Below, in pieces: positions 1 through 63,930 of a DNA stretch of 64,000 nucleotides. Under the pieces are notes generated by a model. It made no database searches and was not told the origin of the DNA. It saw only the letters and a program-made list of their open reading frames with translations. The position numbers were made by a program, and so were the translations under genes. This DNA is from an uncultured Gemmatimonadaceae bacterium (GTDB lineage Bacteria > Gemmatimonadota > Gemmatimonadetes > Gemmatimonadales > Gemmatimonadaceae): assembly GCA_963829055.1 (NCBI GenBank), contig CAWHHI010000012.1, forward strand, positions 96,001 through 160,000, written 5' to 3'. Within the stretch, counting starts at the first letter, position 1. Every line of letters starts with the position of its first letter.

Positions 1-2225
1 GAGCCCGATTCGCAGCTGACGGCGACCGGGACAGCGATCGGCACGCCCGCGTACATGTCACCCGAACAGATCGACGGCGTCGAGCTCGATGGGCGCAGCG
101 ATCTGTACAGTCTCGGACTGGTCGGGTGGGAGATGCTCACCGGCCGGCGCCCGTGGGATGGCGAAGGCCTGTACAGCGTCATCTACAAGCAGAAGCGAGA
201 GGAGCTCCCGCCGATCGACGAGATCAGACCGGACACGCCGGACCGGCTCATCTATCTCATCGAGGGCGCCACAAGGAAGGCCGCCGACGAACGTTGGAGC
301 GGTGCGGCGGAGTTGCTCGAGCGCGCATCGACCATCGCGCCGGAAGGCGGATGGTCGCGCTGGCACGCCGAGCGGCGGAAGCGCCGGCGCGGGATGGTGT
401 ACTCAGCCGCGCGCGAACGCGGCGACTCGGTGCTGTCAGCCGCTCTCGAAACGGTTCGCTTCCGGCGCGACGGCACCACGCCCACCCAGCAGGTCGCTAG
501 CGCACCGCCCGCTCCTCGAGAGCGGTTCGCTGGAGCGGATCCCGCCAAGGTCGAGATCCAGGCGGCTCGGCGCGCGGCGTTCGAGGAGGCCGTCGACGAT
601 CAGCCGCCGCGCCGCTCGGTCCTCCCCGTGTTCATCGTTGCGATGCTGGTGATCGCAGCGATTGGGGCCGGCGTGCGCCTGATGCGCGGCCGCGCTGATC
701 CGATCACCGAAAGTCGCTCGCCAGTCGCATTCTCGGACAACGGCGGTGTTGAGGTACCGGTGGGTGGAGTCGCGACGTCGAAGCCCCCCACGCCTAACGC
801 CATTGTAGGTCAGTCCCCGACTGTACCCGACTCCGCGCCTTCTGCCGCGGTGACTCCAAAGGATTCGAATGGGGTCGCGAGCAACAAACCGGCGCCTGCT
901 CCGAGCTCGGGGCTCGCACGCACGAGCGAACCGACGGCGACGCCAACGCGCCCGAGCCAGGATGGGCGGAAGGCCGCGACTGGTGGCGAAGTGTCGGCGT
1001 CGCCGACCACGACGGATCGCGGGAAGACCGCGCGCGCGGCCGAAGTTCCGCTGCCTCCGCCACCGGTGTTGCCACCAACGAGCCCCGCCACGTCTTCCGT
1101 CGCATCGCGAGGGGCGGCGCCGGTGACTGCCGTAGCGCCACCGAGTGTTGGCGCGGTCTCGTTTCCCGCGGAGCGAGCGACCGTTGCCGCTGGAGGACGA
1201 CACTCGTGCGAGTTGACCAGCTCGGGCTCCGCGTTATGCTGGGGCTCGAACGACCAGGGACAACTCGGCGACGGCACGCTCGACGATCGCACCGATCCCG
1301 CCGTCGTCGCCGGCGATCTTACGTTCGCGCAACTCAGTGCCGGCGCATCGCACACCTGCGGCGTGACGCGCGACGGCGACGCGTACTGTTGGGGCAACAA
1401 CGAGCGTGGCCAGCTCGGCGACGCCACCACATTGCAGCGGAATACGCCCGTACGCGTCGGCGCCGCCGGCCCGTTCAAGACGGTGCGCGCGGGGTTCGCA
1501 CACTCGTGTGCCCTGTCACGCGGTGGGGAAATCTCATGTTGGGGCTCGAACGCGTACGGCCAGCTCGGGACGGGGGTCGGCCTAACGAGCACACGGCCCG
1601 GGGCCGTCGCCGGTGGGCTCCGGTTCGGCGCCATGGCGGTCGGCTGGAATCACACGTGCGGCATTACGACCGCGGGCGACATGTACTGCTGGGGTGCGAA
1701 CAACGGTGGACAGATCGGCGATGGTACGCGTGACGACCGTCGGACTCCGACACGAATCGCCGCAGGTACCCGCTTCGTGGCGGTCGCTGCGGGAAACCAG
1801 CACACGTGCGCCGTCGCCACGACAGGAGACGTCTACTGCTGGGGGCGAAACAACTACGGGCAACTCGCGACGGGTGCCGGCGATCGCGCTCAGCCCAGCA
1901 AGATCGAGTCAGACGGTAACTTCTCGACGCTCACCGCCGGAGCCGTACACACGTGCGCGGTGACAACAGCCGGTCAGGTGTTCTGCTGGGGACGAAACAC
2001 GTTTGGGCAGTTAGGCGACGGTACGACAACGGATCGTCCGACACCCGTTCGCGTCGTTGGTCTTCCGGCGGTCGGTAGTCGTCCAGGCCAGCGGCGCACA
2101 TACGTGCGCCGCGACACCAGGCGGGCGACAGCTACTGTTGGGGCTACAATGTCGAAGGACAGCTGGGCGATGGAACGCGAAACCATCGATCGCGCCCAGT
2201 GCACGTCGCAGCTCCGTCACGCTAG
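1..2225 (+). CDS. Hanks-type Ser/Thr protein kinase with TM segment, Pro/Ala-rich linker and C-terminal RCC1/BLIP-II repeats (5' truncated by window; frameshifts near 2075-2125)
   Basis: GTPAYMSPEQ...DGRSDLYSLG kinase motifs; TM VLPVFIVAMLVIAAIGAG; repeated HTC...YCWG.N..GQLGDG units; reconstructed stop TAG 2223-2225. Confidence 0.85.
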
Positions 2226-2237
2226 CCCAGGCGCCGC

Positions 2238-4404
2238 ATGCTGCACTTCCCACTGCCGGTCCGATTGTCACGTACCGTGTCACGACTCCGCGCCGCCAGT
2301 GGGCTCGCCGCGTTGGCGGCCTCGCTCTCCTGCAGTACCGATACGCTCGACCCCAATCGTACGGCCGTCGCCTCGGTCGTGGTCGCTCCGAGCGAGCTGA
2401 GTGTCGGCGTCGGTTCGTCCGCGCCGCTCATCCGCGGAAGTACGCGACGCCGCGGGCGCACTACTCGCGGACCGAAAGGTCGTGTGGGCGACGAAGAACG
2501 TCACGATTGCCACCGTGTCTGGCTCGGGTGCGGTGACGGGCGTGAGTCCGGGGCCGGTCCAGATCGCCGCGACCGCCGAGGGCAAGAGCGCGCATCGTCG
2601 ATGTGACGGTGAATCCGAAGGCCGTCGCCACCGTGCGCCTAACGCCGAACGGCGACCAGCGACTTGCTGGTCGGTGAAACGAGGCAGATGACGGCCGAGA
2701 CCCTGGACTCACAGGGTGCGCCGCTACCGAGTCGTCCCGTCACGTGGTCGAGCAACTCCATCGGCGTCGCGTCGGTGAGTGCCAACGGACTGATCACGGC
2801 TGTCGCCTCGGGTGGCGCGGTCATCACGGCGTCCAGCGAAGGAAAGACGGCCGTCGTTGCGATCACCGTCTCGTCCGTGCCGGTGGCGACCGTGTCCGTG
2901 ACACCGCCGAGCGGTGAAGTCGTCGTCACGCAGACGCTGCAGCTGACCGCGAACCCCAAGGATGCACAAGGCGGCACACTCGTCGGACGATCCATCGCGT
3001 GGTCTACGAGTGACGCGACTCGTGCCACCGTGTCGTCAACGGGTCTCGTCACAGGCGTGGCTCCAGGCGCCGCCACGATCACGGCGTCGGCTGACGGCAA
3101 GTCAGGAACGTCGTCGATCACAGTCAAGCCGAAACCAGTCGGCGCCGTGATCGTGTCCCCGGGGCAAGTGAGCGTCGAAGCAGGCCAAACGCGTCAGCTC
3201 ACGGCACAGGTGACGGACGATCAGGGCAACGTGCTCAGTGGAAGGCCAATCACATACTCCAGCGACAACCCCGCTATCGCGACGGTTTCGGCGGCCGGCG
3301 TCGTGACGGGTGTGGCAATCGGCTCGGCGAAGATCACGGCCACGAGCGAGGGAAAAACGGGCACCGCCGATGTCAGCGTGACAGCGGTTCCGGTCGCGAC
3401 AGTCGAAGTGTCGCCACCGTCGGCGGATCTCACCGTCGGCCAGACCCGACAGTTGGCCGCAATCGCGAAGGACGGGCGCGGCACGGTGCTCGGCGGCCGA
3501 ACCGTCGTCTGGTCGTCGGGCGCGCCGTCGGTCGCCACCGTATCGGGAACAGGCGTGGTGACCGGGGTTGGCGCGGGGAGTGCCGTTGTTTTCGCGACCA
3601 TCGAAGGGCGACACTGGTTCGGCGACGATCAACGTTAGGCAGGTCGCCGTCACGAGCGTGGCCGTGGCGCCGGCGTCGAGCAACATCGCCGTCGGTGCTG
3701 CCGTGCAACTCGCCGCCACCGTGCGCTCCGGCACGACCGTCCTCACCGATCGAGGCGTCGGCTGGAGCTCGAGCAATGATGCGGTCGCGGTGGTATCGAG
3801 CACGGGCCGCGTGACCGGTCTCAAGGCAGGCGTGGTGACGATCACCGCGACGAGCGACGGCGTCGTCGGCACGGCCGTCGTATCGGTCGGTATCGCGAGC
3901 GTCGTAGTCACGCCCTCGCCGACTACGGTCGGCGTCGGCCAGACACGACAGCTCACCGCCTCGGCGCGCGACGCGGCGAACGGCGCTGTGGCGGGCGTCT
4001 CCTTCCAGTGGTCGTCGCCCGCGACGCAGACCGCGACCGTCGATGCCTCGGGTTTGGTGACCGGTCGCGCGGCGGGCACCGTCAGCATCGCAGCGTCCGT
4101 AGGCTCGGTATCCGGATCGGCCGCGGTGACCGTGGCGCCGCCGCCCGTGGCATGCAGTCACCGTAGCACCGCCAGCACCTAACGTGAAAGCCGGCCAGAG
4201 CGTTCAGCTCACGGCAACGCTCAAGGACGCCAACAACAACGTGCTCACCGACCGCACCGTTGCGTGGAGTTCCAGCAACCCCGCTGCGCGCGACTGTGAA
4301 CGCGCAGGGGCTCGTGACGACATCACTGGTGAACAAAGGAACCGGTAACGATCACCGCGACGTCCGAAGGCAAGAGCGGCTCGTCGGTCGTCACCGTCCA
4401 GTAG
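2238..4404 (+). CDS. Lipoprotein with about 8 tandem bacterial Ig-like (Big_2) domains, frameshifted
   Basis: Signal/lipobox ...LAASLSC; repeated V.V.P...L.VG.T.QL.A...D..G..L..R...WSS....ATVS..G.VT...G...ITA..EGK units across ORFs 2238-2606, 2664-3638, 3568-4182. Confidence 0.85.
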
Positions 4405-4413
4405 GCGCCGCTC

Positions 4414-5586
4414 ATGAAACGATTCATTCGGTCGACGCTTTTCGCAGCCGCTCGCCGGGCTTGTCCTTCTCCTGTCGGGAGCGCTCGCCAGGTCCACTGA
4501 CGCGCAGCAGCTCGCCGCGAAACGCGCGCTGTCCGCGGCGAGCACCTTGCCCTGTGCCGCGCCGACGGCAGGCGTCGCCGCGACGCGCAACGACTCGCCA
4601 GACGTTAGGCGGCTCATGGCGCTCGGCCACGAGGCGGCGATCGTCGGCGATCACCGACAGGCGCGCGACGTGTTCGTCGACGCCGCCCGGCTCAGCCCCG
4701 GCGACGAGCGGATCGCGTACCAACTCGGACGCGCGTACGAGGAGCTCGGCGAACAGCCTAACGCGGTTCGAGAATACTGTCGCTTCCTGGCCCTGGCGCC
4801 ACAGGCCAGCGACGCGCCCGACGTGCGGACGCGGATCACTCGCGCTCGTCGCTCGCACCGCCTGGCGCGACTCGCGGCCAGCGACCCGGTCGGCACGGCG
4901 TTTCGGCACGGCGTCGCGACACCTCGATCGAGCGTCAGTGGCGCGAGGCCGCCGATGCGTTCGACTCGCGTCATCCAGTCACTCCCCCGTGCGGCGGAAG
5001 CGTACTACGATCGGGGACTCGCGCTCGCGGCGCTCGCAGGAGCGCGACGCCGCCGTGCGAGACTTCGAGCAGTATCTGGCGTTTCGTCCGGGCGCCGAGG
5101 ACCAGGCGCAGGTGCGCGCACAGATCGATGCGCTGCGTCGGCCGACGTGGAGCACGAGCACGGCGCTCCTCACGGGGCTCGTCGTTGCCAGGACTCGGAC
5201 AGGTCTACACGTCGCGTCCGTGGATCGGCCTCGGCGTCGCGGCGGTTGCCGGGACGTCGCTCTACCTCGCGCTGCTATCGAAGGAGGAACAGGAGATTCG
5301 CGAGTTCCCGTTCCCTCCCGGATTTCCCGAGCCGACCTACACGGACACGATCACGGTGACGAAGCACCCGTACTACGCGGCCGGGATCGCCGTCTTCGCG
5401 ACGCTCACGATAGGCGCCGCGTTCGAGGCCGCTCGTTACGCACGGCGGTCTCGCGATGCGCCGGTGCGTCACCAACGGGCGGCCGCCCGCCGCACGCGTT
5501 GGCGCGGTGGAGCTGTTTTCACCGGACGTCATCCCGACGCGGCGCGGGCTCGCGCTTCGCATGTCCGGACGCGTATCGCTGCGTAG
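4414..5586 (+). CDS. Secreted/membrane TPR-repeat protein, frameshifted
   Basis: TPR-like helices (ERIAYQLGRAYEELGEQPNAVREYCRFLALAP; AEAYYDRGLAL; AVRDFEQYLAFRP) followed by LPGLGQVY and hydrophobic segments. Confidence 0.7.
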
Positions 5587-5748: not shown

Positions 5749-6717
5749 ATGATCGTTCACACTAGGCTCGCCGCTGTTGCCTCGGGCGCTGCCGCCGCTC
5801 GGGCAGCATCGGCTCCCGCCGCCAATCATCGACTTCGGGTGGAGGAATACCAAACCATCTTGCATGGCGTCCGGCGCGGCGATCGCTTTGATCGTCGGCT
5901 CTCGCAGTCGTCGACTGCCGTCATTCGCCGCCGCCGTCGCGCGCGAGCGCTGCAGGCGCCGCTGCCATTGATTCCCTTCTCCACCGGCTTCGGGCATGTT
6001 CGGGCCGCCGAGGCCGGATCGGCACGCTGCGGCCCCCCGCCCGATCACCGTATGCGATCGTCGCGAACGCGCCGACACCAGCGTGGACATCCGCACAGTG
6101 CCGAATGCAGGACGCAGCAGAACGCCGGACGCTCCCCGTACGCGCCGCCGCACCAGGCACCGCCTGTAGCCGGGAGGCGCGGCGAGCGTGATGTCGGCGC
6201 GCCGACAGCAGCGCGCTGGCCGAGCACGGCGCGCCTAACGAGATGGTCTCCGGGGCCGCCGTCGATGGCGCATCGGTGCGCTACTGGCGCCCGGCCGATG
6301 GCACGTTGCAATTCCTGCCCGGGCCGACTCGAGGTGATCGCCGGTCGCGACGCGGGCCAGGAGATCCGATTCGTCCGCACGCCGGGCCCTGATGGCACGC
6401 GGTGACGTTCGGGCGGGCCGAGGGCGCGCCGTATCGTCACGTGCAGCTGCGAGAGCCCACGGTCAGCCGCACGCATGCCTGCATGACGTTGGACGTCAGG
6501 ACACCGGCGCGGACTGGAGGGCCGGACGAGGTCGGTCCAACGGCGACTCCGCAGCGCCGCGCTGGCGGCTCGAGAATCTCTCGGCGACGAATCCGGTTGT
6601 GGTGAACGGGAGTCCGCTGGCGGCGGATGAGAGTCCGAGCGTCGTTCGGCGGTGCTCGAGCGAGGGCGATCGGATCGAGATGGGCGAGGTCGTGTTCCGC
6701 TTTCATGAGAACGATAG
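5749..6717 (+). CDS. Membrane-anchored FHA-domain protein, frameshifted; ends approximate
   Basis: PGRLEVIAGRDAG, TFGR...EPTVSRTHA, WRLENLSATNPVVVNG, GDRIEMGEVVFRF FHA motifs. Confidence 0.7.
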
Positions 6718-9139: not shown

Positions 9140-9163
9140 TGTACAGGTCTCCTGGAGGAAGTT

Positions 9164-11051
9164 TTACAGCGAAGCGCGCTCTCGCTCGCGCTTCGCTTCC
9201 CGCGACAGCTTCTTCCGATCGTTCGCACTGAGGAATCGCTTCCGAAGACCGAATCGCTCCGGGCGTCACCTCGATCAGCTCATCGTCCTCGATATACTCC
9301 AAGGCGCCTTCGAGCGTCAACTCCCGCGGCGGCTCGAGCTGCACGTTCTCATCGCTCGCCTTCGAGCGCATGTTCGTCAGCTTCTTCTCCTTCGTCGGGT
9401 TGACGTCCATGTCGCCCGGACGCGAGTTCTCACCGACGATCATGCCTTCGTACACCGTGTCACCAGGTGACACGAACAGTGTCGATCGCTCCTGCAAGTT
9501 CGCGAGAGCGAATGCGACAATCGTGCCCGCCTCCATTGACACCAACGTCCCGCGCGTCCGGCCCGCAAGCGGACCCGCCCACGGCCCGTAGTCGAGAAAC
9601 CGGTGATGAATCACGCCGGTCCCACGCGTGTCCGTCAAGAACTCACTGCGATAGCCGAACAATCCGCGCGCCGGAATGCGGTAGCGCAGACGCACCATCC
9701 CCTGCCCCGGATTCTTCATCTCCAGCATCTCGGCGCGACGCGGCCCGAGCTTCTCGATGACGGCGCCCAGGAATGCCTTCGGGCACATCGATCATCAGCT
9801 CTTCGTACGGCTCGAGTCGTTCACCATTCGCGACCCACGCGCGTGATGACGCGCGGTCGCGACACCTGAAACTCGTAGCCCTCGCGACGCATGGTCTCCA
9901 TGAGAATGGAGAGATGCAGCTCGCCGCGTCCGGACACGGTCCACGAATCGGTCGAATCCGTATCCTCGACGCGCAGCGCGACGTTGCGCTCGAGCTCTCG
10001 GTACAATCGCTCTCGCACCTGACGCGACGTCACGAACTTCCCGTCGCTTCCCGGCGAACGGCGAGTTGTTCACGAGAAAGTCCACCGAGATCGTCGGCTC
10101 CTCGACGGCAATGCCTTCGAGGCGATCCGGATGATCGACGTCGGTGATCGTCAGTCCGATCTCGACATCTTCGAGGCCGGCAAGCGCGACGATCTCGCCA
10201 GCGCGCGCCTGTCTCGATCTCGATTCGATCGAGTCCTTCGAACATGTACAACTTCGTTACGCGCGATCGCTCGACTGACCGCGAGTCGAGTGCAGTACCA
10301 GCGGCGACGATCGCCGGCTCGGCTCCTTCGATCGGAAGCAGTGCAACCGTATCGCCGACGCGAACCGTGCCGCGCTCGATGACGACCGATGCCCAGGCGA
10401 CCGAGATACGGCGAATGATCGATGGTCGAAATCAGCATCTGGAACGGCGCGCCGCCATCGCTCGGTGGCGCCGGGACGTGCCGCACGATCGCTTCGAACA
10501 GCGGCGTGAGGTCCGTCGGAGGGACGTTCATGTCGTTCGTCGCGACGCCCTCGCGCGCCGACGCGTAGATGAATGGCGCATCGAGCTGCGACGAATCGGC
10601 CTCGAGCTCGAGCAGCAAGCTCGAGCACCTCGTCGTGCACACGAAGCGGATCGGCACCAGGTCGATCGATCTTGTTGATGACGACGATGGGCGTGCGGCC
10701 TAACGCGAGCGCCTTGCTCAGCACGAAGCGCGTCTGCGGCATGGGACCGTCGAACGCATCGACGACGAGCAGCACGCCATCGACCATGCGCAGGATGCGC
10801 TCGACCTCACCGCCGAAATCGGCGTGGCCGGGTGTATCGACGATGTTGATCTTGGTGCCGCGCCACCGAATGGCGGTGTTCTTGGCGAGGATCGTTATCC
10901 CCCGCTCGCGCTCGAGCGGGTTCGAATCCATCACGCGCTCCTGAACGACCTGATTGTCGCGGAACGCACCGGCCTGGCGGAGCATTTTGTCCACCAGCGT
11001 CGTCTTCCCGTGGTCGACGTGCGCGATGATGGCAATGTTGCGAATCTGCAT
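9164..11051 (-). CDS. typA: Translational GTPase TypA/BipA (frameshifted)
   Basis: [61 protein letters not shown]. Confidence 0.97.
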
Positions 11052-14747: not shown

Positions 14748-16060
14748 GTGATCGGTCGGCTCCTCGCCATCGTCGTGCTCCTGCTGTTCAACGGGTTCTT
14801 CGTGGCCGCCGAGTTTGCGCTCGTGCGGTCGCGACGCACCCGACTCGACGCAATGGCGCGCGAGCGGCGACGCCAAGGCGCGCCTCGCGCTTCGCGCCAC
14901 CGGCAACCTCCCGCGTCTGCTCTCCGCGAGCCAGCTCGGCATCACGCTCGCGAGTCTCGCGCTCGGGTGGGTCGCCGAAAGCACGCTTGGCGAGGCGCTT
15001 GCGCAGCTGGTTCGGCTCACTGCCGTTCGCCATCGAACAATCGCTGCGCGTGAGCTTCGGCGCCATAGTCGCGCTGGCAAGCGTGACGTACCTGCACGTC
15101 GTGTTCGGCGAGCTCGCGCCGCGCGCCGTCGCGCTGAACCATCCCGAGCAGTTCGCGCGCTGGCTCGCGCCGCCGCTGATGGTGTTCGCGTGGCTCGTCG
15201 ACGCCGTTCATCGCCGTGCTGAATCGCTCGTCGCAGGCCGTGCTCAAGGTGTTCGGGCAGCGCGGCGACGTGCTCGAGGAGCCCGTGCACTCTCCCGACG
15301 AACTGCGACTGATCGTGGAGCAGAGCCAGGAAGGCGGCGCGATCCCGGCGCAGGACGCGGATCTCATCGAGGGCGTGTTCGAGTTCTCGGAGAAGAATGC
15401 GCGCGAAGTGATGACGCCGCGCACGGAAGTGGTCGCGATGCCGATCGACGCGACGCTCGACGAGGCGCTGGCCATCGTCGAGGAGAACGCATTCTCGCGC
15501 TATCCAGCGTACGACGACTCGATCGACAACATCGTCGGTCTCGTGCTCGCGAAGGATCTGCTGCGCGTGCTGCGCAGTCCGCCGGCGGGATTCACGGTCG
15601 AGTCGATCATGCGCGACGTGCACGTCGTGCCCGGCTCGCGCGAGGTCGAGGAGGTGCTGGCGGACTTCAAGCGACTCAAGGAGCACATGGCCGTCGTGCT
15701 CGACGAGTACGGTGGCACCGCGGGCATCGTGACGATGGAGGACCTGCTCGAGGAGATCGTCGGCGAGATTCTCGACGAGTACGACGAGCCGACACCGCCC
15801 GAGGCGTCGACAGACGGCTGGCGAGACGTTGGTGCCCGGGTCGCTGCACATCGGCGAGCTCAACGAGCGGTTCGGGCTGACGGTGCCGCAGGACGACTAC
15901 ACGACGATCGGCGGGTTCGTGTTCGGCTCGTTAGGCCGGCTGCCCGTCGTCGGCGATCGCGTCGCCGCGGGCGGCGCGGTGTTCACCGTGCGGCAGATGG
16001 ATGGCCGGCGGATCGAGAGCGTCGCCGTCGACGTACACCGAGCTCAGCAGCGACTGGCCG
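14748..16060 (+). CDS. CNNM/CBS/CorC-HlyC (hemolysin-family) membrane protein; 3' end uncertain
   Basis: [74 protein letters not shown]. Confidence 0.9.
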
Positions 16061-17003
16061 AGGCGCGCTCACGCGAGCGAAGCGCGATCATCGCGCAGAC
16101 GCGCACCGACTCCTTCATGCTCGACGCGTCGGCGATGCCACGACCCGCAATGTCGATCGCCGTGCCGTGATCGGGCGACGTCCGCGGGAATGGAAGGCCG
16201 AGCGTGACGTTCACGGCGCGCCCGAACGCGGCGACCTTGATGGCCGTCATGCCCGACGTCGTGATACGGCGCGATCACGGCGTCGAACTCACCGCGGAGC
16301 GCGCGCACGAATACCGTGTCCGCGGGAAACGGCCCGGCGATGCCCGCCGCGACGCGCGGCCGGCGCGCAGGATCGTGTCGTCCTCGGTGCCGAAGCGGCC
16401 GCCATCGCCGGCATGCGGGTTGAGCGCGCATAACGCGATCCGCGGAGACTCGACGCCGAACCAGTCGACGAGTCCGTCGCGCGTCACGTCGAACAGCAGC
16501 GCGCGATGGCCTCCGCGGTCACGGCGTCCGGGACGTCGCGCAGCGGCAATGTGCGTCGTCGCGAGCACGACACGCAGCGGGATGCGTGCGCCCATCGTCG
16601 CTCGCACTCGATGCGAGCATCATCGCGACCGTGCGCCCGTCAGCGCGGCGAGCATTTCCGTGTGGCCCGGGATAGTCGTAACCGCCGGCGAGGAGCGCGG
16701 CCTTGTCGATCGGCGCGGTGACGATGCCATCGACGTCGCCCGACTGCGCCAGCGTCGACCGCGCGCTCGATGGCGCGGCCGGCAAGACGTCCGGCAGCGG
16801 CGGCGCGGTGCAGTGCGGTCGCCGCTCGCGGTCCACTCACCGACTGGATCGATCGACCGTTGACGCCGGTGCCCGACGGCCCGACGAGCACGAGCTCAGC
16901 GATCGCGCGACATGCCGGCGTCCGACTGAACGGCGGCGACGATCTCCGGACCAATGCCGCGCGGGTCGCCTAACGTGACAGCGAGACGGATCCGGTTCGT
17001 CAC
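16044..17003 (-). CDS. pdxA: 4-hydroxythreonine-4-phosphate dehydrogenase PdxA (frameshifted)
   Basis: [55 protein letters not shown]. Confidence 0.93.
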
Positions 17004-33938: not shown

Positions 33939-33952
33939 CGCAGCCGGACCTC

Positions 33953-40666: not shown

Positions 40667-40788
40667 GCGCATCGCACCGCCCGGTGCGACGGTACCGAAC
40701 ATTCGGACCACTCCGCCCCCGAAATCGCACGGCCTAACGCGCCGTGTGGCCGTCGGGAGGCTCACCGCGCTCAGGAGCATTGCTCAAC

Positions 40789-43090: not shown

Positions 43091-43870
43091 ATGACCATCG
43101 CTCGTCACCTTCGACCGCGCGACGCTCGGCTACGGACGTCGCGCGGTGCTCACCGACATCTCCTTCGACATTCCCGGAAGGGGACTTTCTCGGCCTCGTC
43201 GGACCTAACGGCGCCGGCAAGACCACGATCCTTCGCGCGCTCCTCGGGAGCCTCACGCCGCTCAGCGGGACCGTGTCGCGCGCGCCCGACGCTCCGTTTC
43301 GGTTACGTCCCGCAGCGCGATCAGGTCGACTACAACTTTCCCGCTCAAGGTTCTCGACGTCGTGCATGATGGGACGCTACGACCGCATCGGCCTCGGTCG
43401 CCGCCCCACGGAAGACGACCGGCGGCGCGCGCACGAGGCGCTCGAGCACGTCGGCATCGACCGACTGGCCGATCATCCGCTCGCCGATCTGTCCGGTGGT
43501 CAGAAACAGCGCACGCTCATCGCTCGCGCGCTCGTCGGCGAGCCTAACGTGCTCGTGCTCGATGAGCCGACGAACGGCATGGATCTCGTCGCGACGACGC
43601 AGATCCTCGGGCTCGTGCGCGAGCTGCACGACCGTGACGGCCTCACGGTGCTCATGGTCAGTCACGCACTGAACGAAGTCGCCAACTACGTGGAGCGCAT
43701 CGCGCTCGTCGTCGAGGGCGGATTTCGCATCGGTACGACAGACGAGATCATGACCGAGGAGGCGCTCAGCCAGATGTACGGGATCCCGGTCGAGGTCGAC
43801 TCGTTCGCACGGCCATCGCATCGTCGTCGCGCGTCGTGCCGGCGCCGAACCGGTTACCGACCATGTTTAG
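43091..43870 (+). CDS. Metal ABC transporter ATP-binding protein (ZnuC-like); end approximate
   Basis: GPNGAGKTT, GYVPQ, LSGGQKQR, LDEPTNG, VSHAL. Confidence 0.9.
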
Positions 43871-47796: not shown

Positions 47797-49421
47797 ATGG
47801 CAACGCAGACCAAGCCCGCCACGGGAGCGCCTGACGCGACGAAGGGACTCGAAAGCAGGGGCTGCGCCCGAGCGGTGAGGTCCATTGGAACCTCGTGGCG
47901 CCCGAGCTGATGCTCGCCGCCGCGCGCCGCGGCGAGGGCGAGTTCGCCGACATGGGCCCGTTCGTGCGCAGTCACGTCGCCGCACACCGGCCGTTCGCCG
48001 AACGACAAGTTCGTCGTGCGCGAGCCCGCCACCGAGGGCGACATCGACTGGGGCAAGGTGAACCAGCCGTACTCCGCCGCCCACTTCGAGACGCTGCTGG
48101 CCGACGTCCGCGCGTATCTCGACCAGCAGCCGGAGCTGTTCGTGCAGGACCTCCGCTGCGGCGCCGACCCGGCCCATCGCCTGAGCGTCCGCTACGTGAT
48201 GCCTAACGCCTGGCACGCGGCGTTCGTGCGGAACATGTTCATCCGCCCGGACGCAGAGCGAGCTGCCGACGTTCGAGCCGAACTTCACGGTGCTGCACGC
48301 GCCCGAGTTCCAGGCCGATCCGGCTCGGCACGGTACGCGGACCGAGCACGTTCATCGTCCTGAATTTCGCGCAAGCGCATGATCCTCATCGGCGGCACGC
48401 GCTACGCCGGTGAGCTCAAGAAGTCGATGTTCACGGTCATGAACTACTTCATGCCGAAGGACGGCGTGCTCTCCATGCACTGCTCGGCCAACGTCGGGCC
48501 GCAGGGAGACACCGCGCTGTTCTTCGGTCTGTCCGGCACCGGCAAGACGACGCTCTCGGCGGATCCGGAGCGCTCGCTCATCGGCGACGACGAGCACGGC
48601 TGGGCGGAGACGGGCATCTTCAACTACGAAGGCGGCTGCTACGCGAAGGTCATCAACCTCTCGGCCGAGGGCGAGCCGGACATCTACGCGACGACGCAGA
48701 TGTTCGGGACGATCCTCGAGAACGTGGTGCTGGAACCGACGCTCGAAGAAGGTGAAGTTCGAGGACCAGTCGATCACCGAGAACACGCGCGCCTCGTATC
48801 CGCTGCCGTACATCCGCGAACCACGTGCCGAGCGGTCGCGGCGGTCACCCGAAGAACGTCGTGTTCCTCACGGCGGACGCGTTCGGCGTGCTCCCGCCCA
48901 TCGCGCGCCTAACGCGCGAGCAGGCGATGTACTACTTCCTGTCCGGGTACACGGCGAAGGTCGCCGGCACCGAGCGTGGCGTCACCGAGCCGCAGGCGAC
49001 GTTCAGCGCCTGCTTCGGCGCGGTGTTCCTCGTGTGGCACCCGACGAAGTACGCGGAGATGCTGGGTCGCCTGCTCGCGGAGCACGATTCGCACGTGTGG
49101 CTGGTGAACACCGGGTGGAGCGGCGGTGCGTACGGCGTGGGCAAGCGCATGAAGCTCGGCTACACGCGCGCCATGGTGCGCGCGGCGCTGGCGGGTCAGC
49201 TCGACCAGGTGCCGACGCAGACCGACGAGCGCTTTGGACTCGCGGTGCCGACGCAGGTCCCGGGCGTTCCGTCGGAAGTCATGCGCCCGCGCGATACGTG
49301 GAGCGACGCCGCGGCGTACGACGCGCAGGCGAAGAAGCTGGCCGAGATGTTCAGGAAGAACTTCGAGAAGTTCGGCAGCAACATCTCGCCAGCCATCGCT
49401 GACGCGGGACCGAAGGTCTAA
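47797..49421 (+). CDS. pckA: Phosphoenolpyruvate carboxykinase (ATP)
   Basis: [49 protein letters not shown]. Confidence 0.97.
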
Positions 49422-49490: not shown

Positions 49491-50723
49491 GTGATCATCA
49501 GAGACCCACTGTGGAACAACATCCGTGTCGACGCGCTGGCTTTGCAGCTCGTCGACACGCCTGTATTTCAGCGGCTCCGATACGTTAGGCAGCTCGGCCT
49601 CGCGTACCTGGTGTACCCCGGCGCCACTCACACGCGGTTCGAGCACGCGCTCGGCGCCTACCACCTCGCGCGACTGACGCTGTCGCTGCTCGACGAGCGC
49701 GGTGAGCTGGACGGCGTGTCCCTCGAGGAGCGCGCGATCGCGCAGGCAGCCGCGCTGCTGCATGACGTCGGGCACTACCCGTTCTCGCACGCGCTCGAGG
49801 AGATCGGCGCGCTGCACCACGAACAGGTCGCGACGCCACTCGTGCTCGGCGGCTCGGTAGGGGCCGCGCTCACGGCGACGCTCGGAGCGAGCGCGCCGGA
49901 GCGCGTGCTGGCGCTGATTCGCGGCGTGAGCGAGTCCCCGCTGCAGGGACTCGTGTCCGGATCGCTCGACCTCGATAAGATCGAGTACCTCAAGCGCGAC
50001 GCGCTCATGTGTGGCGTGCCGTACGGCGAGATCGACGTCGACCGTCTGCTCAACTCGCTGGTTCTCGTCGACGAGCCCGCAACTGGCCGCCGCGTCGTCG
50101 GCGTGCTGGAGAAAGGACTGTCCGCGCTCGAGTCGCTGCTGTTCGCGAAGTACCAGATGTACCGGAATGTCTACTGGCATCATGCCGTTCGGAGCGCAAC
50201 GGCGATGTACAAGCGGCTCGTCGACGAGGCGCTCACCGCCGGGGACATCGACCCGCAGGCGCTCAGCACGTTCGACGATGAGGGCCTGCTCCATCGACTT
50301 GCACATCGCGGCGCTCCGCCGCTGTTGGTGGCGCTGCGCGAGCGACGACTCTACAAGCGCGTGCTCGAATGCCCTGCGGCGGAGCTCGCGGGCGAGGATC
50401 CCGAGTGGATCGCGGACGACCGCGGCCTCACCATCGAGATGGAAGATCGCATCGCCGCGCAACTCGGACTCTCGGCCGGCGAGATCCTGCTCGACTTTCC
50501 GGCGAAGACGCAGATGCTGGGCCTCGACCTGCCGGTCGTGCGCCGATCGGGCGAAGTCCGGCGCCTAACGACTGCCGGGCTCGAAGGCGCGATCAACCTT
50601 CCGGTGCTGTCGGAGCAGCTGTACCGCTCCGCCCGATGGCTCCGCGTGTTCGCGGTGCGGCGCATCGAGGTGCCGCGCACCGAGCTGCTCGATCAGCTCA
50701 TGCGAGTGACCGCCGGCGCCTGA
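49491..50723 (+). CDS. HD-domain phosphohydrolase (dNTP triphosphohydrolase-like)
   Basis: FQRLRYVRQLG, YPGATHTRFEH, LLHDVGHYPFSH, DLDKIEYL.RD, MYRNVYWH. Confidence 0.9.
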   Translation: MIIRDPLWNNIRVDALALQLVDTPVFQRLRYVRQLGLAYLVYPGATHTRFEHALGAYHLARLTLSLLDERGELDGVSLEERAIAQAAALLHDVGHYPFSHALEEIGALHHEQVATPLVLGGSVGAALTATLGASAPERVLALIRGVSESPLQGLVSGSLDLDKIEYLKRDALMCGVPYGEIDVDRLLNSLVLVDEPATGRRVVGVLEKGLSALESLLFAKYQMYRNVYWHHAVRSATAMYKRLVDEALTAGDIDPQALSTFDDEGLLHRLAHRGAPPLLVALRERRLYKRVLECPAAELAGEDPEWIADDRGLTIEMEDRIAAQLGLSAGEILLDFPAKTQMLGLDLPVVRRSGEVRRLTTAGLEGAINLPVLSEQLYRSARWLRVFAVRRIEVPRTELLDQLMRVTAGA

Positions 50724-55903: not shown

Positions 55904-58782
<2,879 letters not shown>

Positions 58783-58804
58783 CGGTCATCCGAGCCGTGG
58801 AGCG

Positions 58805-59671
58805 TTAGGCGTTAGGCGTGATCGAGGCGGCGCGCGCGACATCCCGTCGGCGCTCCTGGATGCGGCGCACGATGCGCGTCATTCGCCGCCGGGACAGCAG
58901 CCGATTGACCACCACGACGGCCTTGTTGCGGATCCCGGGCACGACGACGCGCTGGCCGTTGCTCGCACCGCGGTAGCCGGCTTCGGCCACTTCCCGTGAC
59001 GTCATGAGCGGCGCGCCACCCGACGGCGCGTTCGGGTGAATGCCCGCCCGTCCATGAAATTCCGTCACGGTGGGCCCCGGGCAGAGCGCGGTGACGGTCA
59101 CGCCGGTGCCGGCGGCTTCTTCGGCCAGCGCTTCGGAGAACGACTGCACGTAGGCCTTCGATGCGTAGTAGACCGCCATGATCGGGCCGGGCTGAAACGC
59201 CGCCACGGAAGACACGTTCAGAATGCGACCGCGACGGCGCGCGAGCATCCCGGGCAGCACCATCTTCGTCAGGTGCGTCAGGGCGGCGATGTTCACCTCG
59301 ACGATTTCGAGCTCTCGCTCGATGTCCGTCTCGTGGAAGAAGCCGTGTGTCCCGATGCCGGCGTTGTTCACGAGCGCGTCGATGCGGTCATCAAGTGCCC
59401 GAATCCGCGCTGCCACGTGCTCGCGATCGAGGCGACGCGAGAGATCGGCCGGAAATGCGTCACACACGACGCCGTGGCGGTCGCTGAGCGACCGCGCTAC
59501 CGATTCGAGTGCGTCACGGCGCCGGGCGATGAGCAACAGATCGTGCCCGTCGCGGGCGAACAGGTCCGCGAAATCAACCCCGAGTCCGCTCGACGCACCC
59601 GTGATGATCGCCACGGGCCGGCGCTCGCCGCTTCGCGCAGGCGCAACCGCCAATGTAGGAAGAGCAGTCAC
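58805..59671 (-). CDS. Short-chain dehydrogenase/reductase
   Basis: TGASSGLG, NNAG, YYASK, LCPGPT. Confidence 0.93.
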   Translation of the reverse strand: MTALPTLAVAPARSGERRPVAIITGASSGLGVDFADLFARDGHDLLLIARRRDALESVARSLSDRHGVVCDAFPADLSRRLDREHVAARIRALDDRIDALVNNAGIGTHGFFHETDIERELEIVEVNIAALTHLTKMVLPGMLARRRGRILNVSSVAAFQPGPIMAVYYASKAYVQSFSEALAEEAAGTGVTVTALCPGPTVTEFHGRAGIHPNAPSGGAPLMTSREVAEAGYRGASNGQRVVVPGIRNKAVVVVNRLLSRRRMTRIVRRIQERRRDVARAASITPNA

Positions 59672-63130: not shown

Positions 63131-63141
63131 CGACCGATCCG

Positions 63142-63930
63142 TTAGGGTTTCTTTTCGGTGAGCGCCTTGATCGCAGCCGGCATCTGGAACGTCGTCGAGT
63201 CGGCGACGTCGTAATCGACCGCGTTGATGTGAATCACCTGCTCCTGTCCCATCGCCTGCTGCGTTAGGCGCGTGGCGATCTTCTGCCCACCGAATTCCTT
63301 GTAGTCGCTGAGCAGGTTCGTCACCTCCATGGTGCCCATCGCCGTCTCCTGCTTGCCGACGGACGCGACAAGCAGGCCACTCGCGACGCTGTAGCAGTCG
63401 AACGACTCGCGACCGGACTTCCAGACGACCTTCACCTTGTAGCAGGCCTCGCCATTCATCTCCGTCTTCTCGACCGTCTCGGCCGACACGACGTTAGGCC
63501 CCTGACGCGAGGATGATCCGAAGCTGGACTCCTCACGGAGGGCATCGAGCTCCTTGCCGGACTTGATTCTCGGCCCCTGCATGGGGTTGATCGACCAGGC
63601 CGTCGTGCCGTCGTAGCCTTCCTCGAGCTGCCCGATCCCGGGTAGGTCGATGTGCATCATTGTCTTGTTCGGACGAGCCTGCACGATCTCCATGTCGCCG
63701 GACATTCCCGCGGCGGGCATCTCGAACTTGCCCTTCGTCCGCATGGACGAGTGCTTCGCCAGCACAGCAGGCGCATTCGTGGCGGTCACGAACTTGGCAA
63801 TCAGTTCCTTGGCCGGTGGTAGCCCGGCGGCGGGCGCCTGCCCCCCAGCGCTGGCGACGGCGATCATCGTTAGGCCCATGGCGGCCGCGGCCTGTCGGCG
63901 CAGCCGTCGATCGATTGTGCTGATGTACAT
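63142..63930 (-). CDS. Secreted LolA-like/outer-membrane lipoprotein-sorting fold protein
   Basis: Signal peptide; ARPNK, GYDGTTAW, CYKVKV, SDYKEFGG. Confidence 0.6.
   Translation of the reverse strand: MYISTIDRRLRRQAAAAMGLTMIAVASAGGQAPAAGLPPAKELIAKFVTATNAPAVLAKHSSMRTKGKFEMPAAGMSGDMEIVQARPNKTMMHIDLPGIGQLEEGYDGTTAWSINPMQGPRIKSGKELDALREESSFGSSSRQGPNVVSAETVEKTEMNGEACYKVKVVWKSGRESFDCYSVASGLLVASVGKQETAMGTMEVTNLLSDYKEFGGQKIATRLTQQAMGQEQVIHINAVDYDVADSTTFQMPAAIKALTEKKP

What the first reader, a model, noticed from the sequence alone, without database searches (positions are those of the whole stretch)
792..63875. Window-wide iterated non-palindromic motif (G)CCTAACG / CGTTAGG(C) written into genes with rare codons: candidate uptake, HIP-like or chromosome-signal system
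Seen: by eye I count 17 GCCTAACG (792, 1580, 2637, 4756, 6233, 10698, 16968, 22998, 24587, 27519, 33933, 34121, 40732, 43542, 48201, 48907, 50563). I count 19 CGTTAGGC (3633, 4603, 15929, 19179, 27677, 29266, 38358, 39674, 42580, 44044, 49583, 57383, 57767, 58358, 58803, 58810, 63262, 63492, 63868). About 10 more share the 7-mer core and about 6 are CCTAAC(A/T) variants. A rough zero-order expectation at about 68% GC (estimated by eye) is only 2-3 8-mers per 64 kb, and TA is otherwise scarce here. The motif occurs in different frames and forces rare codons: ACG/CCG/TCG-TTA-GGC (lepA, znuA, uvrA x3), CGC-CTA-ACG (pckA), GTT-AGG (HD protein), CCT-AAC (lepA). It also supplies stop codons (33936, rpiB 45429, SDR 58805, 63142). 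Selection or bias therefore seems to act at DNA level, not protein level. Known: Neisseria/Pasteurellaceae uptake sequences and cyanobacterial HIP1 behave this way, whereas Chi and KOPS are strand-polarised; this motif is not (17 vs 19). Inference: a possibly undescribed lineage-specific DNA signal such as an uptake sequence, a methylation/repair-driven motif or a nucleoid-protein site. A pilT gene in the window is compatible with competence but does not show it.
Basis: partly seen in the sequence, partly recalled or inferred. Interest (0 to 1): 0.9.

Follow-up and report, generated by a model that had tools for sequence, protein, structure and literature searches.

The report
Genome-wide DNA word matching integron core
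This soil bacterium has written the eight-letter DNA word GCCTAACG about 5,000 times through its genes against its own codon habits, much like the self-tags a few bacteria use to recognise their own DNA, and the word is spelled like one end of the recombination sites of its integron gene cassettes; what reads it is still unknown.

Summary
All 36 listed GCCTAACG/CGTTAGGC sites exist; 0.94 are expected by chance. The genome holds 5,004 copies, 38-49 times low-order Markov expectation and 20 times a synonymous-codon shuffle.

The word shows no polarity. Copies avoid each other below about 250 bp. It forms by point substitutions, mainly CTG>TTG>TTA, and sometimes changes conserved amino acids.

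Its distribution among relatives is patchy. A triple-word scan of 185,579 species gave 43 loci. All lay in Gemmatimonadota or in Chthoniobacterales-type Verrucomicrobiota.

New here:
- Verrucomicrobiota use a longer dialect, GCCTAACGA(GT).
- In both phyla the word equals the R' core-site end of the local integron attC, including the adjacent lineage-specific bases.
- In non-carriers the word sits largely in cassette arrays.

The methylation/repair reading is disfavoured, and integrase presence does not separate carriers from non-carriers. My best guess, about 0.4, is an uptake-sequence-like transfer bias tuned to the attC core. No reader was identified. This scan has reported the same word before in other Gemmatimonadaceae genomes.

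The parts
792..799 (+). word GCCTAACG inside ORF 1-2397(+), Ser/Thr-kinase-like
1580..1587 (+). word inside ORF 1-2397(+)
2637..2644 (+). word outside my called genes
3633..3640 (-). word at the end of ORF 2688-3635(+)
4603..4610 (-). word inside ORF 4427-4909(-)
4756..4763 (+). word inside ORF 4427-4909(-)
6233..6240 (+). word outside my called genes
10698..10705 (+). word inside TypA/BipA fragment 10260-11060(-)
15929..15936 (-). word inside CorC/GldE-like ORF 15216-16430(+)
16968..16975 (+). word outside my called genes
19179..19186 (-). word at the junction of ORFs 18988-19197(-) and 19184-19432(-)
22998..23005 (+). word at the edge of ORF 23003-23329(-)
24587..24594 (+). word inside ORF 24489-25316(-)
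27519..27526 (+). word inside lepA fragment 27460-27864(+)
27677..27684 (-). word inside lepA fragment 27460-27864(+)
29266..29273 (-). word inside heptosyltransferase ORF 28308-29348(+)
33933..33940 (+). word outside my called genes; its TAA (33936) was not verified as a used stop
34121..34128 (+). word outside my called genes
38358..38365 (-). word inside EnvC-like M23 peptidase ORF 37978-39018(+)
39674..39681 (-). word inside deoxyribonuclease IV (nfo) ORF 39466-40227(+)
40732..40739 (+). word outside my called genes
42580..42587 (-). word outside my called genes
43542..43549 (+). word inside ABC-transporter ATPase ORF 43366-43911(+)
44044..44051 (-). word outside my called genes
48201..48208 (+). 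word inside pckA fragment 48016-48360(+)
48907..48914 (+). word inside pckA fragment 48825-49418(+)
49583..49590 (-). word inside ORF 49491-50720(+), no family
50563..50570 (+). word inside ORF 49491-50720(+)
57383..57390 (-). word in uvrA as TCG-TTA-GGC. Non-carrier orthologues have CTC or CTG (ATC in G007) at this Leu
57767..57774 (-). word in uvrA as CCG-TTA-GGC, shared by all 7 genomes of the genus plus G010 and G014
58358..58365 (-). word in uvrA as ACG-TTA-GGC, made with an Arg-to-Thr change at a site that is Arg in 28 of the 30 genomes aligned
58803..58810 (-). word whose TAA is the stop codon of the SDR gene 58808-59614(-)
58810..58817 (-). word overlapping the previous one by one base, in the last codons of the SDR gene
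63262..63269 (-). word inside ORF 63145-63930(-), no family
63492..63499 (-). word inside ORF 63145-63930(-)
63868..63875 (-). word inside ORF 63145-63930(-)
2010..63146 (.). 16 further CCTAAC cores that are not full 8-mers, among them 45427-45432(-) at the rpiB stop and 63141-63146(-) at the stop of ORF 63145-63930(-)

Best explanation
GCCTAACG is a real, lineage-specific DNA word.

Shown:
- It arises in place by ordinary point substitutions and is then kept preferentially.
- It is kept whatever the reading frame or strand, and sometimes at the cost of a conserved amino acid.
- Read as CGTTAGGC, it equals the R' core-site end of the integron attC sites of the same lineages, including the crossover G|TT and the inner flanking base or bases.
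- This match holds in two phyla that use different dialects.

Inferred:
- An unidentified sequence-specific reader recognises this attC end.
- Fragments carrying the word would enter and recombine more often, so words spread by molecular drive.
- One word per few hundred bases would suffice, which would explain why close neighbours are rare in the Gemmatimonadaceae.
For: Abundance: 5,004 copies (2,457 +, 2,547 -). It is the top-ranked 8-mer, at 38x, 49x and 19x over order-1, -2 and -3 Markov models.

Codon-aware null: 3,383 words in called CDS against 166.5 +/- 11.2 after synonymous permutation. 1,325 of 2,819 TTA codons lie in the word.

Saturation: 22% of [SPTA]-L-G and 58% of x-P-N-[VADEG] peptide sites carry it.

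No polarity: r = -0.14 with GC skew and -0.10 with gene strand.

Neighbour avoidance, as observed/expected pair density at 9-100, 100-250 and 250-400 bp:
- G000: 0.23, 0.55, 0.86. 40 control 8-mers give medians of 1.18, 1.16, 1.10.
- G014: 2 pairs against 16.4 expected at 9-100 bp; G004 is also depleted.

Mutation-limited route: in the xCG_Leu_GGC context TTA is 44%. CTG falls to 6.8% (37% elsewhere) and TTG to 1.4% (6.7% elsewhere), while CTC stays at 42% (47.5% elsewhere).

uvrA in 30 genomes: carriers have TTA where non-carriers have mostly CTC or CTG. Arg>Thr, Tyr>Asn and Tyr>Leu changes create words or near-words.

Retention: over 254 kb aligned with congener G004 at 76% identity, 35 of 115 G000 words and 34 of 71 G004 words are shared. 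Same-phase control 8-mers are shared at 12%.

Second phylum: 43 of 43 triple-word loci lie in Gemmatimonadota (22) or Verrucomicrobiota (21).

Dialect: position 9 is A in 97% of 641 words in G032. It is A in 84% of 76 words from 21 Verrucomicrobiota loci, against 13% in Gemmatimonadota loci.

attC match: the attC ends read CTAAC-GAG in Verrucomicrobiota arrays and GCCTAAC-G in Gemmatimonadota arrays.

DNA-uptake genes are present in G000. Of these, only ComEC was searched in the Verrucomicrobiota carriers, and it is present in 5 of 5.

Natural experiment: a gene shared across the two phyla at 88.7% nucleotide identity carries GCG-TTA-GGC in all four Gemmatimonadaceae copies. The Verrucomicrobiota copy has GCG-CTC-GGC between matching flanks.
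Against: No reader was found.

Uptake genes are near-universal; they ring in 10-11 of 14 control genomes.

No pilus-linked protein tested follows the carrier pattern.

Close inverted pairs acting as terminators, typical of Neisseria DUS, are depleted rather than enriched.

Flanks of lineage-specific words are not more diverged than background: 0.71-0.75 against 0.75 identity. Words therefore arise in place rather than arriving on imported tracts.

Neighbour avoidance is weak in the Verrucomicrobiota genome: 0.67 below 100 bp and none beyond.

Only 2 of the 16 R-box variants RYYYAAC+G are enriched in G000. ATCTAACG, common in the Verrucomicrobiota arrays, is not enriched in either genome; GTCTAACG is 4-fold enriched in G032 only. 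A receptor meant to catch all cassettes would therefore miss many.

Natural competence is not documented for either clade in the papers I could search.
Confidence: 0.4

Rival explanations
1. The reader is the integron integrase itself. The words would be single R boxes in duplex DNA, acting like attI or attG sites. They would be kept by selection in cis, either as docking sites for cassette insertion or as decoys that soak up integrase.
For: - The word equals the inner flank plus the R' core site and spans the crossover point.
- The dialect follows the local attC.
- IntI scores over its cut-off in G000 and in 5 of 5 Verrucomicrobiota carriers.
- G000 has its own cassette array next to intI.
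- Integrases can insert cassettes at double-stranded genomic attG sites with a 5'-GWT-3' consensus (bioRxiv 10.1101/2022.09.11.507474, passages read).
Against: - IntI is over its cut-off in 13 of the 21 genomes whose count does not exceed their control, but in only 5 of 10 carriers.
- The densest Gemmatimonadaceae carrier, G014, has only a fragmented intI, and none was found in G010.
- Arrays use several R-box variants, yet only GCCTAACG and ACCTAACG are enriched genome-wide in G000.
- Words lie inside genes, where an insertion would be harmful.
- Only 19 of 63 candidate R''...R' pairs fold like a hairpin, and few of those resemble attC sites outside the array.
Confidence: 0.2
2. The word is a cis-acting chromosomal signal for an unknown host protein, such as a nucleoid-organising, loading or Chi-like protective factor. 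Weak selection would keep each site. Integron attC ends would resemble it because cassettes adapt to their host, or by chance.
For: - Density is similar on all 20 contigs, 0.48-0.80 per kb.
- Neighbour avoidance suggests one site serves a neighbourhood.
- Words are kept more than controls.
- No RecC was found, so a non-RecBCD end-processing system with its own signal is possible.
Against: - There is no replication or transcription polarity, unlike Chi and KOPS.
- Letter-for-letter identity with the attC end in two phyla, with matching dialects, is hard to explain by chance.
- Relatives closer to G000 than G014 is do without the word.
Confidence: 0.15
3. The word is a by-product of biased mismatch repair tied to DNA methylation, as proposed for HIP1 and for very-short-patch repair.
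For: The magnitude of enrichment resembles HIP1 (recalled, not checked here). Single-step neighbours at inner positions are depleted to 0.17-0.69 of expectation at 13 of 18; GCATAACG (4.4x), GCCTGACG (2.4x) and GCCGAACG (1.5x) are not depleted.
Against: - No Vsr, C5, N6_N4 or N6_Mtase gene was found in G000, which is 86% complete.
- The one D12-class methylase occurs in six genomes that are not clear carriers (five non-carriers and borderline G018) and was not found in G014, G010 or G030.
- Words are made by C>T, G>A, C>A, G>T and T>A changes, which no single mismatch-specific enzyme would produce.
- Site-autonomous repair would not make neighbours avoid each other.
- The word is not a palindrome.
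Confidence: 0.05
4. The word is an artefact of base-calling, assembly or contamination.
For: This assembly has many frame-split genes, including uvrA, lepA, typA, pckA and mfd. It also has at least one foreign-looking block.
Against: - The same word at the same codons occurs in independent assemblies of 9 other genomes.
- It occurs in dozens of MAGs with different isolate labels.
- It is written through in-frame codons.
Confidence: 0.01

Closest known systems
DNA uptake sequences: DUS of Neisseriaceae (receptor ComP) and USS of Pasteurellaceae
   Same: - A short non-palindromic word on both strands without polarity, at about one per 0.8-3 kb.
- It sits inside genes in all usable frames and reshapes codons and some residues.
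- It has lineage dialects.
- It is rare in foreign DNA.
- Mean spacing of 1.5 kb is like the 1.1-1.5 kb reported for DUS (PMC2397512, passages read) and about 1 kb for USS (PMC7811141, passages read).
- Dialects and the ComP link: PMC3630211 and PMC3868556, seen as search listing and abstract start only.
   Different: - Uptake bias is untested and no receptor is known.
- The word occurs in two unrelated phyla.
- It equals the integron attC core-site end.
- Close inverted pairs are depleted, not used as terminators.
- New words appear in place without diverged flanks, whereas import by recombination was argued for DUS.
Integron recombination sites: attC R' core site GTTRRRY, attI R box, attG
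   Same: - The letters fit RYYYAAC/GTTRRRY and include the crossover G|TT.
- In non-carrier relatives most copies sit in cassette arrays: about 44 of 65 in G021 and 16 of 19 in G063.
- G000's own array uses the word.
   Different: - The dispersed copies have no L box, no partner arm and flat flanks.
- They lie in ordinary genes and arose by substitution, not by insertion.
- Only 2 of 16 R-box variants are enriched in G000.
HIP1 of cyanobacteria (recalled, no paper read here)
   Same: An 8-letter word enriched tens of fold, placed in genes against codon preference.
   Different: HIP1 is a palindrome and is linked to methyltransferases. This word is asymmetric, and its genome has almost no DNA methylase genes.
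Chi and KOPS/AIMS octamers
   Same: Asymmetric octamers enriched on the core genome.
   Different: Those are co-oriented with replication and enriched only a few fold (recalled). This word is strand-balanced in both GC-skew classes (659/717 and 975/953) and enriched about 40-fold. RecC was not found.

Membership tests
DNA uptake sequence (DUS/USS) | Hyper-abundant short asymmetric word on both strands | tested here: met
   5,004 copies, 2,457 + and 2,547 -, 38-49x over low-order Markov models
DNA uptake sequence (DUS/USS) | Spread over the whole genome without replication polarity | tested here: met
   All 20 contigs at 0.48-0.80 per kb; r = -0.14 with GC skew
DNA uptake sequence (DUS/USS) | Imposed on coding sequence at DNA level, shaping the proteome | tested here: met
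   20x over synonymous shuffle; Pro-Asn dipeptide observed/expected 1.41; residue changes in uvrA
DNA uptake sequence (DUS/USS) | Lineage dialects | tested here: met
   An 8-mer in Gemmatimonadaceae; GCCTAACGA(GT) in Verrucomicrobiota
DNA uptake sequence (DUS/USS) | Competent cells prefer DNA that carries the word | not testable with these tools
   Needs uptake or transformation assays
DNA uptake sequence (DUS/USS) | Cognate receptor that co-occurs with the word | tested here: inconclusive
   Type IV pilus cluster and five pilin-like genes are present. Two candidates show no carrier-specific pattern. The ComP_DUS family was not searched
DNA uptake sequence (DUS/USS) | Close inverted pairs serving as terminators (Neisseria) | tested here: not met
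   Pairs under 60 bp: 13 inverted against about 96 expected
Integron attC site | R box RYYYAAC/GTTRRRY | tested here: met
   The letters fit and are identical to the array attC ends
Integron attC site | Two imperfect inverted arms (R''-L''...L'-R') that fold into a hairpin | tested here: not met
   Flat logo outside the 8-mer; R''...R' pairs at 60-150 bp are depleted; 19 of 63 candidate pairs fold strongly
Integron attC site | Arrayed next to intI and separating cassettes | tested here: not met
   True only for the array beside intI on contig C20 of G000 (about C20:183900-207972). The other roughly 5,000 copies are dispersed in ordinary genes
HIP1-like palindrome | Palindromic word linked to a DNA methyltransferase | tested here: not met
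   The word is asymmetric. No C5, N4/N6 or N6 methylase or Vsr was found. The D12 methylase is not co-distributed
Chi / KOPS | Orientation bias with replication | tested here: not met
   659 + / 717 - in positive-skew bins and 975 + / 953 - in negative-skew bins

The most novel reading that the evidence does not exclude
Two unrelated groups of soil bacteria, Gemmatimonadaceae and a Chthoniobacterales clade, would each carry a DNA-uptake or other transfer system. Its receptor would be tuned to the R' core-site end of their own integron attC sites, so cells preferentially fish gene cassettes out of environmental DNA.

The thousands of genomic words would then be the molecular-drive footprint of that receptor. 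The shared 8-letter core would create a cross-phylum gene-exchange community. The one gene found at 88.7% nucleotide identity between the two groups would be an example.
Probability: 0.2. Interest if true: 0.95.

Novelty: new variant of a known kind. Interest (0 to 1): 0.82.

Why it matters
Uptake-type genome words are known from only two proteobacterial families. Here the same kind of signature appears in two abundant soil phyla and is tied letter for letter to the integron core site.

If a reader exists, three things follow:
- It would be the first sequence-specific DNA-transfer bias described outside Neisseriaceae and Pasteurellaceae.
- It would link natural transformation to the acquisition of integron cassettes.
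- It would give a handle on gene flow in soil communities.

The word is also a practical marker. It separates native from foreign DNA in these MAGs, as with the word-free block of duplicated housekeeping genes on contig C6. It also dates the residence of acquired genes.

I found no paper that describes it. The searches were made, over open-access PMC and bioRxiv only.

Tried and rejected
1. Methylation or repair driver. Vsr, C5, N6_N4 and N6_Mtase families were not found in G000. The single D12-class methylase (C8:134573-135647, frame-split in this assembly) occurs in G007, G009, G013, G015, G017 and G018 and was not found in G014, G010 or G030. My regex prefilter for methylases gave 6 ORFs and was dropped in favour of family searches.

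2. Chi-like reading. RecC was not found and there is no polarity.

3. Integrase as discriminator. TIGR02249 is over its cut-off in 18 of 31 relatives, carriers and non-carriers alike. No conserved neighbour of intI is shared across phyla.

4. Reader candidates by phyletic pattern:
- The pilus-linked 383-aa protein is present in 28 of 31 genomes, and G014's copy is only 31% identical.
- The orphan pilin C11:105384 has orthologues only within the genus.
- The secreted 432-aa protein shared with Verrucomicrobiota also occurs in non-carriers.

5. Cassette-encoded reader. No protein is shared between G000's array and the Verrucomicrobiota arrays beyond one weak 125-aa match.

6. Cross-phylum high-identity screen over 1.03 Mb, about 26% of G032. 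It gave only metabolic and housekeeping genes plus one QW-repeat protein. Rfam finds no RNA family there.

7. Words as cassette-insertion scars. Rejected because the uvrA sites align without indels.

8. An apparent run of + words was a listing artefact.

9. 'Word-free islands'. The largest is more likely foreign or chimeric DNA than an island.

10. Not used: the sequencing-run, structure and complex tools. pilT in the window was not examined.

Full report
**1. The observation**

One search finds GCCTAACG 36 times in the window, 17 on + and 19 on -, at exactly the listed coordinates. 100 dinucleotide-preserving shuffles give a mean of 0.94 and a largest value of 4.

The window is G000:C12:96001-160000 of a 7,784,024-base assembly in 20 contigs. 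The assembly is 66.6% GC, 86% complete and 4% contaminated.

Gene names were checked with NCBIfam:
- lepA, uvrA, pckA, rpiB and an SDR are right.
- 'znuA' is an ABC ATPase.
- pilT and the HD protein were not examined.

Many genes are split into frame-shifted pieces (uvrA, lepA, typA, pckA, mfd). The assembly therefore carries indel errors. My home-made gene calls give 7,690 ORFs covering 78% of the genome and are approximate.

**2. Genome-wide statistics**

The genome holds 5,004 copies, 2,457 on + and 2,547 on -. Expectations are 131, 102 and 257 under order-1, -2 and -3 Markov models. The word is the top-ranked 8-mer under each model. 7,103 of the 8,933 CTAA tetramers lie in CCTAAC.

Called CDS hold 3,383 words. 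Permuting synonymous codons within each gene gives 166.5 +/- 11.2, and permuting whole codons gives 75.3 +/- 8.9, from 10 runs each.

The word uses all four stop-free frames:

| Frame | Count |
|---|---|
| xCG-TTA-GGC | 1,320 |
| xxG-CCT-AAC-G | 952 |
| xGC-CTA-ACG | 616 |
| xxC-GTT-AGG-C | 473 |
| straddling gene ends | 428 |
| outside called genes | 1,215 |

Further codon-level results:
- 1,325 of 2,819 TTA codons lie in the word.
- 243 of 926 TAA stops read GCC-TAA-CG and 212 of 1,981 TAG stops read CGT-TAG-GC.
- Of peptide sites that could encode the word silently, the following carry it: 22% of [SPTA]LG, 58% of xPN[VADEG], 20% of [SRCG]LT and 11% of xVR[LPHQR].
- The Pro-Asn dipeptide is 1.41 times expectation.

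Outside the eight letters the logo is nearly flat, so the copies are not parts of a longer repeat.

**3. What the distribution says about mechanism**

*No polarity.* In 145 bins of 50 kb, word strand bias correlates neither with GC skew (r = -0.14, p = 0.09) nor with gene strand (r = -0.10). GC skew and gene strand do correlate with each other (r = 0.48).

*Neighbour avoidance.* Values are observed/expected pair density.

| Genome | 9-100 bp | 100-250 bp | 250-400 bp | 400-1000 bp |
|---|---|---|---|---|
| G000 word | 0.23 | 0.55 | 0.86 | 0.99 |
| G000, 40 control 8-mers (median) | 1.18 | 1.16 | 1.10 | 1.07 |
| G032 word (Verrucomicrobiota) | 0.67 | 1.27 | 1.11 | 1.29 |
| G032, controls (median) | 1.30 | 1.08 | 1.17 | 1.09 |

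- The one G000 control that behaves like the word is the word itself shifted by one base.
- All four orientation classes are depleted.
- The effect recurs in G014, with 2 pairs against 16.4 expected at 9-100 bp, and in G004.
- In G032 it is weak and confined to distances below 100 bp.
- A site-autonomous mutational process would not produce this pattern. A function in which one site serves a neighbourhood would.

*Words are fed by point mutation.* In the context xCG_Leu_GGC, TTA is 44%, against 0.4% away from such flanks. CTG falls from 37% to 6.8% and TTG from 6.7% to 1.4%. CTC barely changes, from 47.5% to 42%. The main route is therefore two transitions, CTG>TTG>TTA, and intermediates are drained.

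*Tolerance*:
- Position 1: G (5,004) > A (827) > C (428) > T (132).
- Position 8: G >> A (435).
- Position 3 also allows A (583 copies, 4.4x expectation).
- Positions 2, 6 and 7 are strict.

**4. Relatives**

Among 31 genomes of the order:
- All 7 of genus g1 carry 2,501-5,112 copies.
- G014, another genus of the same family, carries 6,360 in 5.1 Mb.
- G010 has 605 and G030, from another family, has 345.
- G018 has 194, which is below its reversed-word control.
- The remaining 20 have 3-65 copies, mostly below their controls.
- G013 is an unpublished genome and counts among these 20. Leaving it out changes nothing.

UvrA identity shows that several non-carriers (G015 81%, G013 and G011 78%) are closer to G000 than G014 is (74%).

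In a codon alignment of uvrA from 30 genomes:
- The three window words lie at conserved S/A-L-G, P-L-G and L-x-L-G sites.
- Non-carriers have mostly CTC or CTG there, and carriers have TTA.
- G030 shares one of these sites with G000; a second G030 word lies at a site where G000 has none.
- The third G000 word needed Arg>Thr at a residue that is Arg in 28 of 30 genomes. G014 made the same change independently.
- G014 also changed Tyr>Asn and Tyr>Leu to create words.

Over 254,017 aligned columns with congener G004 at 76% identity:
- 35 of 115 G000 words and 34 of 71 G004 words are shared, against 12% for same-phase control 8-mers.
- Non-shared G000 words differ at 1-6 letters, most often 3.
- Flanks are no more and no less diverged than background.
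- So there is both retention and rapid turnover, and new words appear in place.

**5. The integron link**

In non-carriers the few copies cluster on one strand every 500-650 bp, in G021 (C95, C43, C80), G019 (C3) and G029 (C1). They are the ends of a conserved repeat between short ORFs, that is, integron cassette arrays. About 44 of G021's 65 copies lie in these three stretches.

The integron integrase family TIGR02249 is over its cut-off in 18 of 31 genomes. That is 5 of 10 clear carriers and 13 of the other 21. G014 has only fragments.

G000 has intI at C20:208041-208958. It scores 265.7 bits against a cut-off of 265 and is only 39-47% identical to the other integrases compared. Beside it lies an array whose attC sites begin with the word.

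Each attC has two ends:
- In Gemmatimonadota arrays one end reads GCCTAAC-A and the other GCCTAAC-G.
- ORF orientation identifies the A-end as R'' in both G021 and the Verrucomicrobiota array of G031. In G021, ORF 2842-3963 stops inside it. In G031, cassette ORFs run between the attC sites on the - strand.
- The G-end is therefore the complement of R'.
- The genomic word, read as CGTTAGGC, is thus the inner flanking base plus the classical core site GTTRRRY, and it spans the crossover G|TT. The consensus names are recalled. The conserved AAC triplet and the attG concept appear in passages of PMC12614218.

Of the 16 possible RYYYAAC+G words only GCCTAACG (38x) and ACCTAACG (13x) are enriched in G000. 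ATCTAACG is at 0.27x.

**6. A second phylum and a dialect**

I scanned 185,579 species genomes for three words in + - + order with gaps of 258-288 bases. The scan returned 43 loci. 22 are labelled Gemmatimonadota or Gemmatimonadaceae. 21 are labelled Chthoniobacterales, Spartobacteria or 'uncultured Verrucomicrobiae'. None is from any other group.

Five of the Verrucomicrobiota genomes (3.9-4.5 Mb) hold 2,349-5,186 words against reversed-word controls of 257-382.

Among 41 relatives of one of them, 25 carry the 9-mer above control, with 138-2,435 copies. 16 have 1-19 copies. Unpublished genomes G036 and G044 are among the 25.

In non-carrier G063, 16 of the 19 copies sit in arrays.

The Verrucomicrobiota word is longer:
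- In 1.006 Mb of G032 (58.5% GC; 641 words, 318 + and 323 -), position 9 is A in 97%.
- Position 10 is G in 63%, position 11 T in 63% and position 14 T in 54% (for the first 206 kb).
- Over 21 Verrucomicrobiota loci, position 9 is A in 84% of 76 words. In 22 Gemmatimonadota loci it is A in 13% of 70 words.
- G004, G014 and G010 share G000's plain 8-mer. The 76 kb of G030 held 27 cores and showed no clear extension.

All five Verrucomicrobiota carriers have IntI over its cut-off. Their attC R' ends read CTAAC-GAG on the bottom strand, while the R'' ends read CTAAC-CA. The extra letters of the Verrucomicrobiota dialect (G, A, G) are thus the letters that follow the core in the Verrucomicrobiota attC. 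The Gemmatimonadota word stops where its attC becomes variable.

This co-variation rests on two lineages and on one to two extra positions. I count it as moderate support, added to the 8-of-8 identity.

**7. A natural experiment**

In the 1.03 Mb of G032 that I held, only one stretch is similar to G000 at DNA level: 88.7% over 917 bases (G032:C1:176884-177795 against G000:C10:94376-95290).
- It encodes a 317-aa protein with QxxDGxW-type repeats and no Pfam or NCBIfam family.
- It is 80-82% identical to copies in G001, G002 and G006.
- It was not found at that level in the other 26 relatives.
- All four Gemmatimonadaceae copies have GCG-TTA-GGC where the Verrucomicrobiota copy has GCG-CTC-GGC between matching flanks. 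Two of them carry a second word as well.

The same gene is therefore edited only in the host whose dialect fits. It also shows gene flow between the two word-bearing groups. One case does not show that the word promotes such flow.

**8.

Nothing I tested follows the carrier pattern: the D12 methylase, pilus-linked proteins, an orphan pilin, a secreted protein shared across phyla, integrase neighbours and cassette proteins.

G000 has ComEC, DprA, a short ComEA-like HHH ORF and a PilMNOQ/pilin/PilSR cluster. ComEC is in 5 of 5 Verrucomicrobiota carriers. These genes are too common to count as evidence.

A whole-proteome profile was beyond the tools.

**9. Caveat on 'islands'**

The three longest word-free stretches all touch contig ends:
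- C6:5440-55037
- C11:1-46789
- C6:591808-623330

The first encodes aromatic amino-acid synthesis, FtsK, PepA and Rpe. Second copies of these genes elsewhere in G000 are only 47-56% identical, with one TrpB segment at 74%. It is therefore foreign DNA, either a chimeric join or a large acquisition.

The last block holds the only GreA and ApbE copies found, so it may be native.

Absence of the word there fits lineage specificity. It should not be quoted as proof of recent transfer.

**10. Verdict**

The word is real, acts at DNA level and is under a directional force (near certain). Its tie to the attC core-site end is probably real (about 0.8).

The mechanism is open. My estimates are:

| Reading | Confidence |
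|---|---|
| Uptake-like transfer bias tuned to the attC end | 0.4 |
| Integrase-read R boxes | 0.2 |
| Another cis-acting signal | 0.15 |
| Repair or methylation | 0.05 |
| Artefact | 0.01 |

Earlier notes of this scan reported the same word, its integron likeness and a second phylum in other genomes.

New here, as far as I can see from those summaries:
- the dialect and its match to the local attC
- the R'-end assignment
- the transition-fed route
- the neighbour avoidance
- the shared-gene experiment
- the near absence of methylases

**Papers and what I saw of them**
- PMC2397512, PMC7811141, PMC12614218 and bioRxiv 10.1101/2022.09.11.507474: passages.
- PMC3630211, PMC3868556 and PMC2817400: listing and abstract start only.
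- HIP1 and molecular-drive modelling papers: recalled, not seen.
- No supplements were consulted.

Noticed in passing
G000 contig C20:183900-208958 (outside the window): G000 has its own integron. intI is on the - strand at 208041-208958. An inverted pair of near-words lies just past its 3' end. A cassette array runs away from the 3' end of intI. This integrase is only 39-47% identical to the other integrases compared, while Verrucomicrobiota and Gemmatimonadota non-carrier integrases are 56-58% identical to each other.
   Followed up: partly
G000 C6:5440-55037; also C11:1-46789 and C6:591808-623330: The three longest word-free stretches all touch contig ends. The first carries second copies of single-copy housekeeping genes (FtsK, AroC, TrpB, PepA, Rpe) at 47-56% identity to the copies elsewhere, plus a D5_N primase-like gene. 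It is probably a chimeric join or a large foreign insert.
   Followed up: partly
G000 C10:94376-95290 and L137:16846-17796 (G032): A 317-aa QxxDGxW-repeat protein of no known family is shared between Verrucomicrobiota and four genomes of this genus (88.7% nucleotide identity to G000; 80-82% amino-acid identity to the other three). This indicates cross-phylum transfer. G000's copy is closer to the Verrucomicrobiota copy than to its congeners' copies.
   Followed up: partly
window 55904-58782, 26411-27864, 9108-11060, 48016-49418, 20259-22633: uvrA, lepA, typA, pckA and mfd are each split into frame-shifted pieces, while relatives have intact ORFs. The assembly seems to carry many indel errors.
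   Followed up: no
whole genome G000: In 7.8 Mb, no C5, N4/N6 or N6_Mtase-family DNA methylase and no Vsr or RecC were detected. There is only one D12-class methylase, at C8:134573-135647. That is unusually few for a genome of this size, though the assembly is 86% complete.
   Followed up: partly
L161 (G033:C12:120500-140400) and L005 (G021:C80): A 310-aa ORF, present twice inside a 3.1-kb repeat in a Verrucomicrobiota cassette array, is 38% identical over 308 aa to a 342-aa ORF in a Gemmatimonadota array. It may be an insertion sequence that targets attC sites. It was not annotated.
   Followed up: no
G000 genome-wide: GCATAACG, the word with A at position 3, is itself 4.4-fold enriched with 583 copies. 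It supplies 12 TAA stops. This points to a reader that accepts C or A at that position.
   Followed up: no
G000 C12:392001-412000 (L045): A type IV pilus cluster holds PilS/PilR, two tandem major-pilin genes, a minor pilin-like gene, two proteins of no known family (306 and 383 aa) and PilMNO(P)Q. The 383-aa protein is only 51-57% identical within the genus, where UvrA is 87-88% identical, so it evolves fast.
   Followed up: partly
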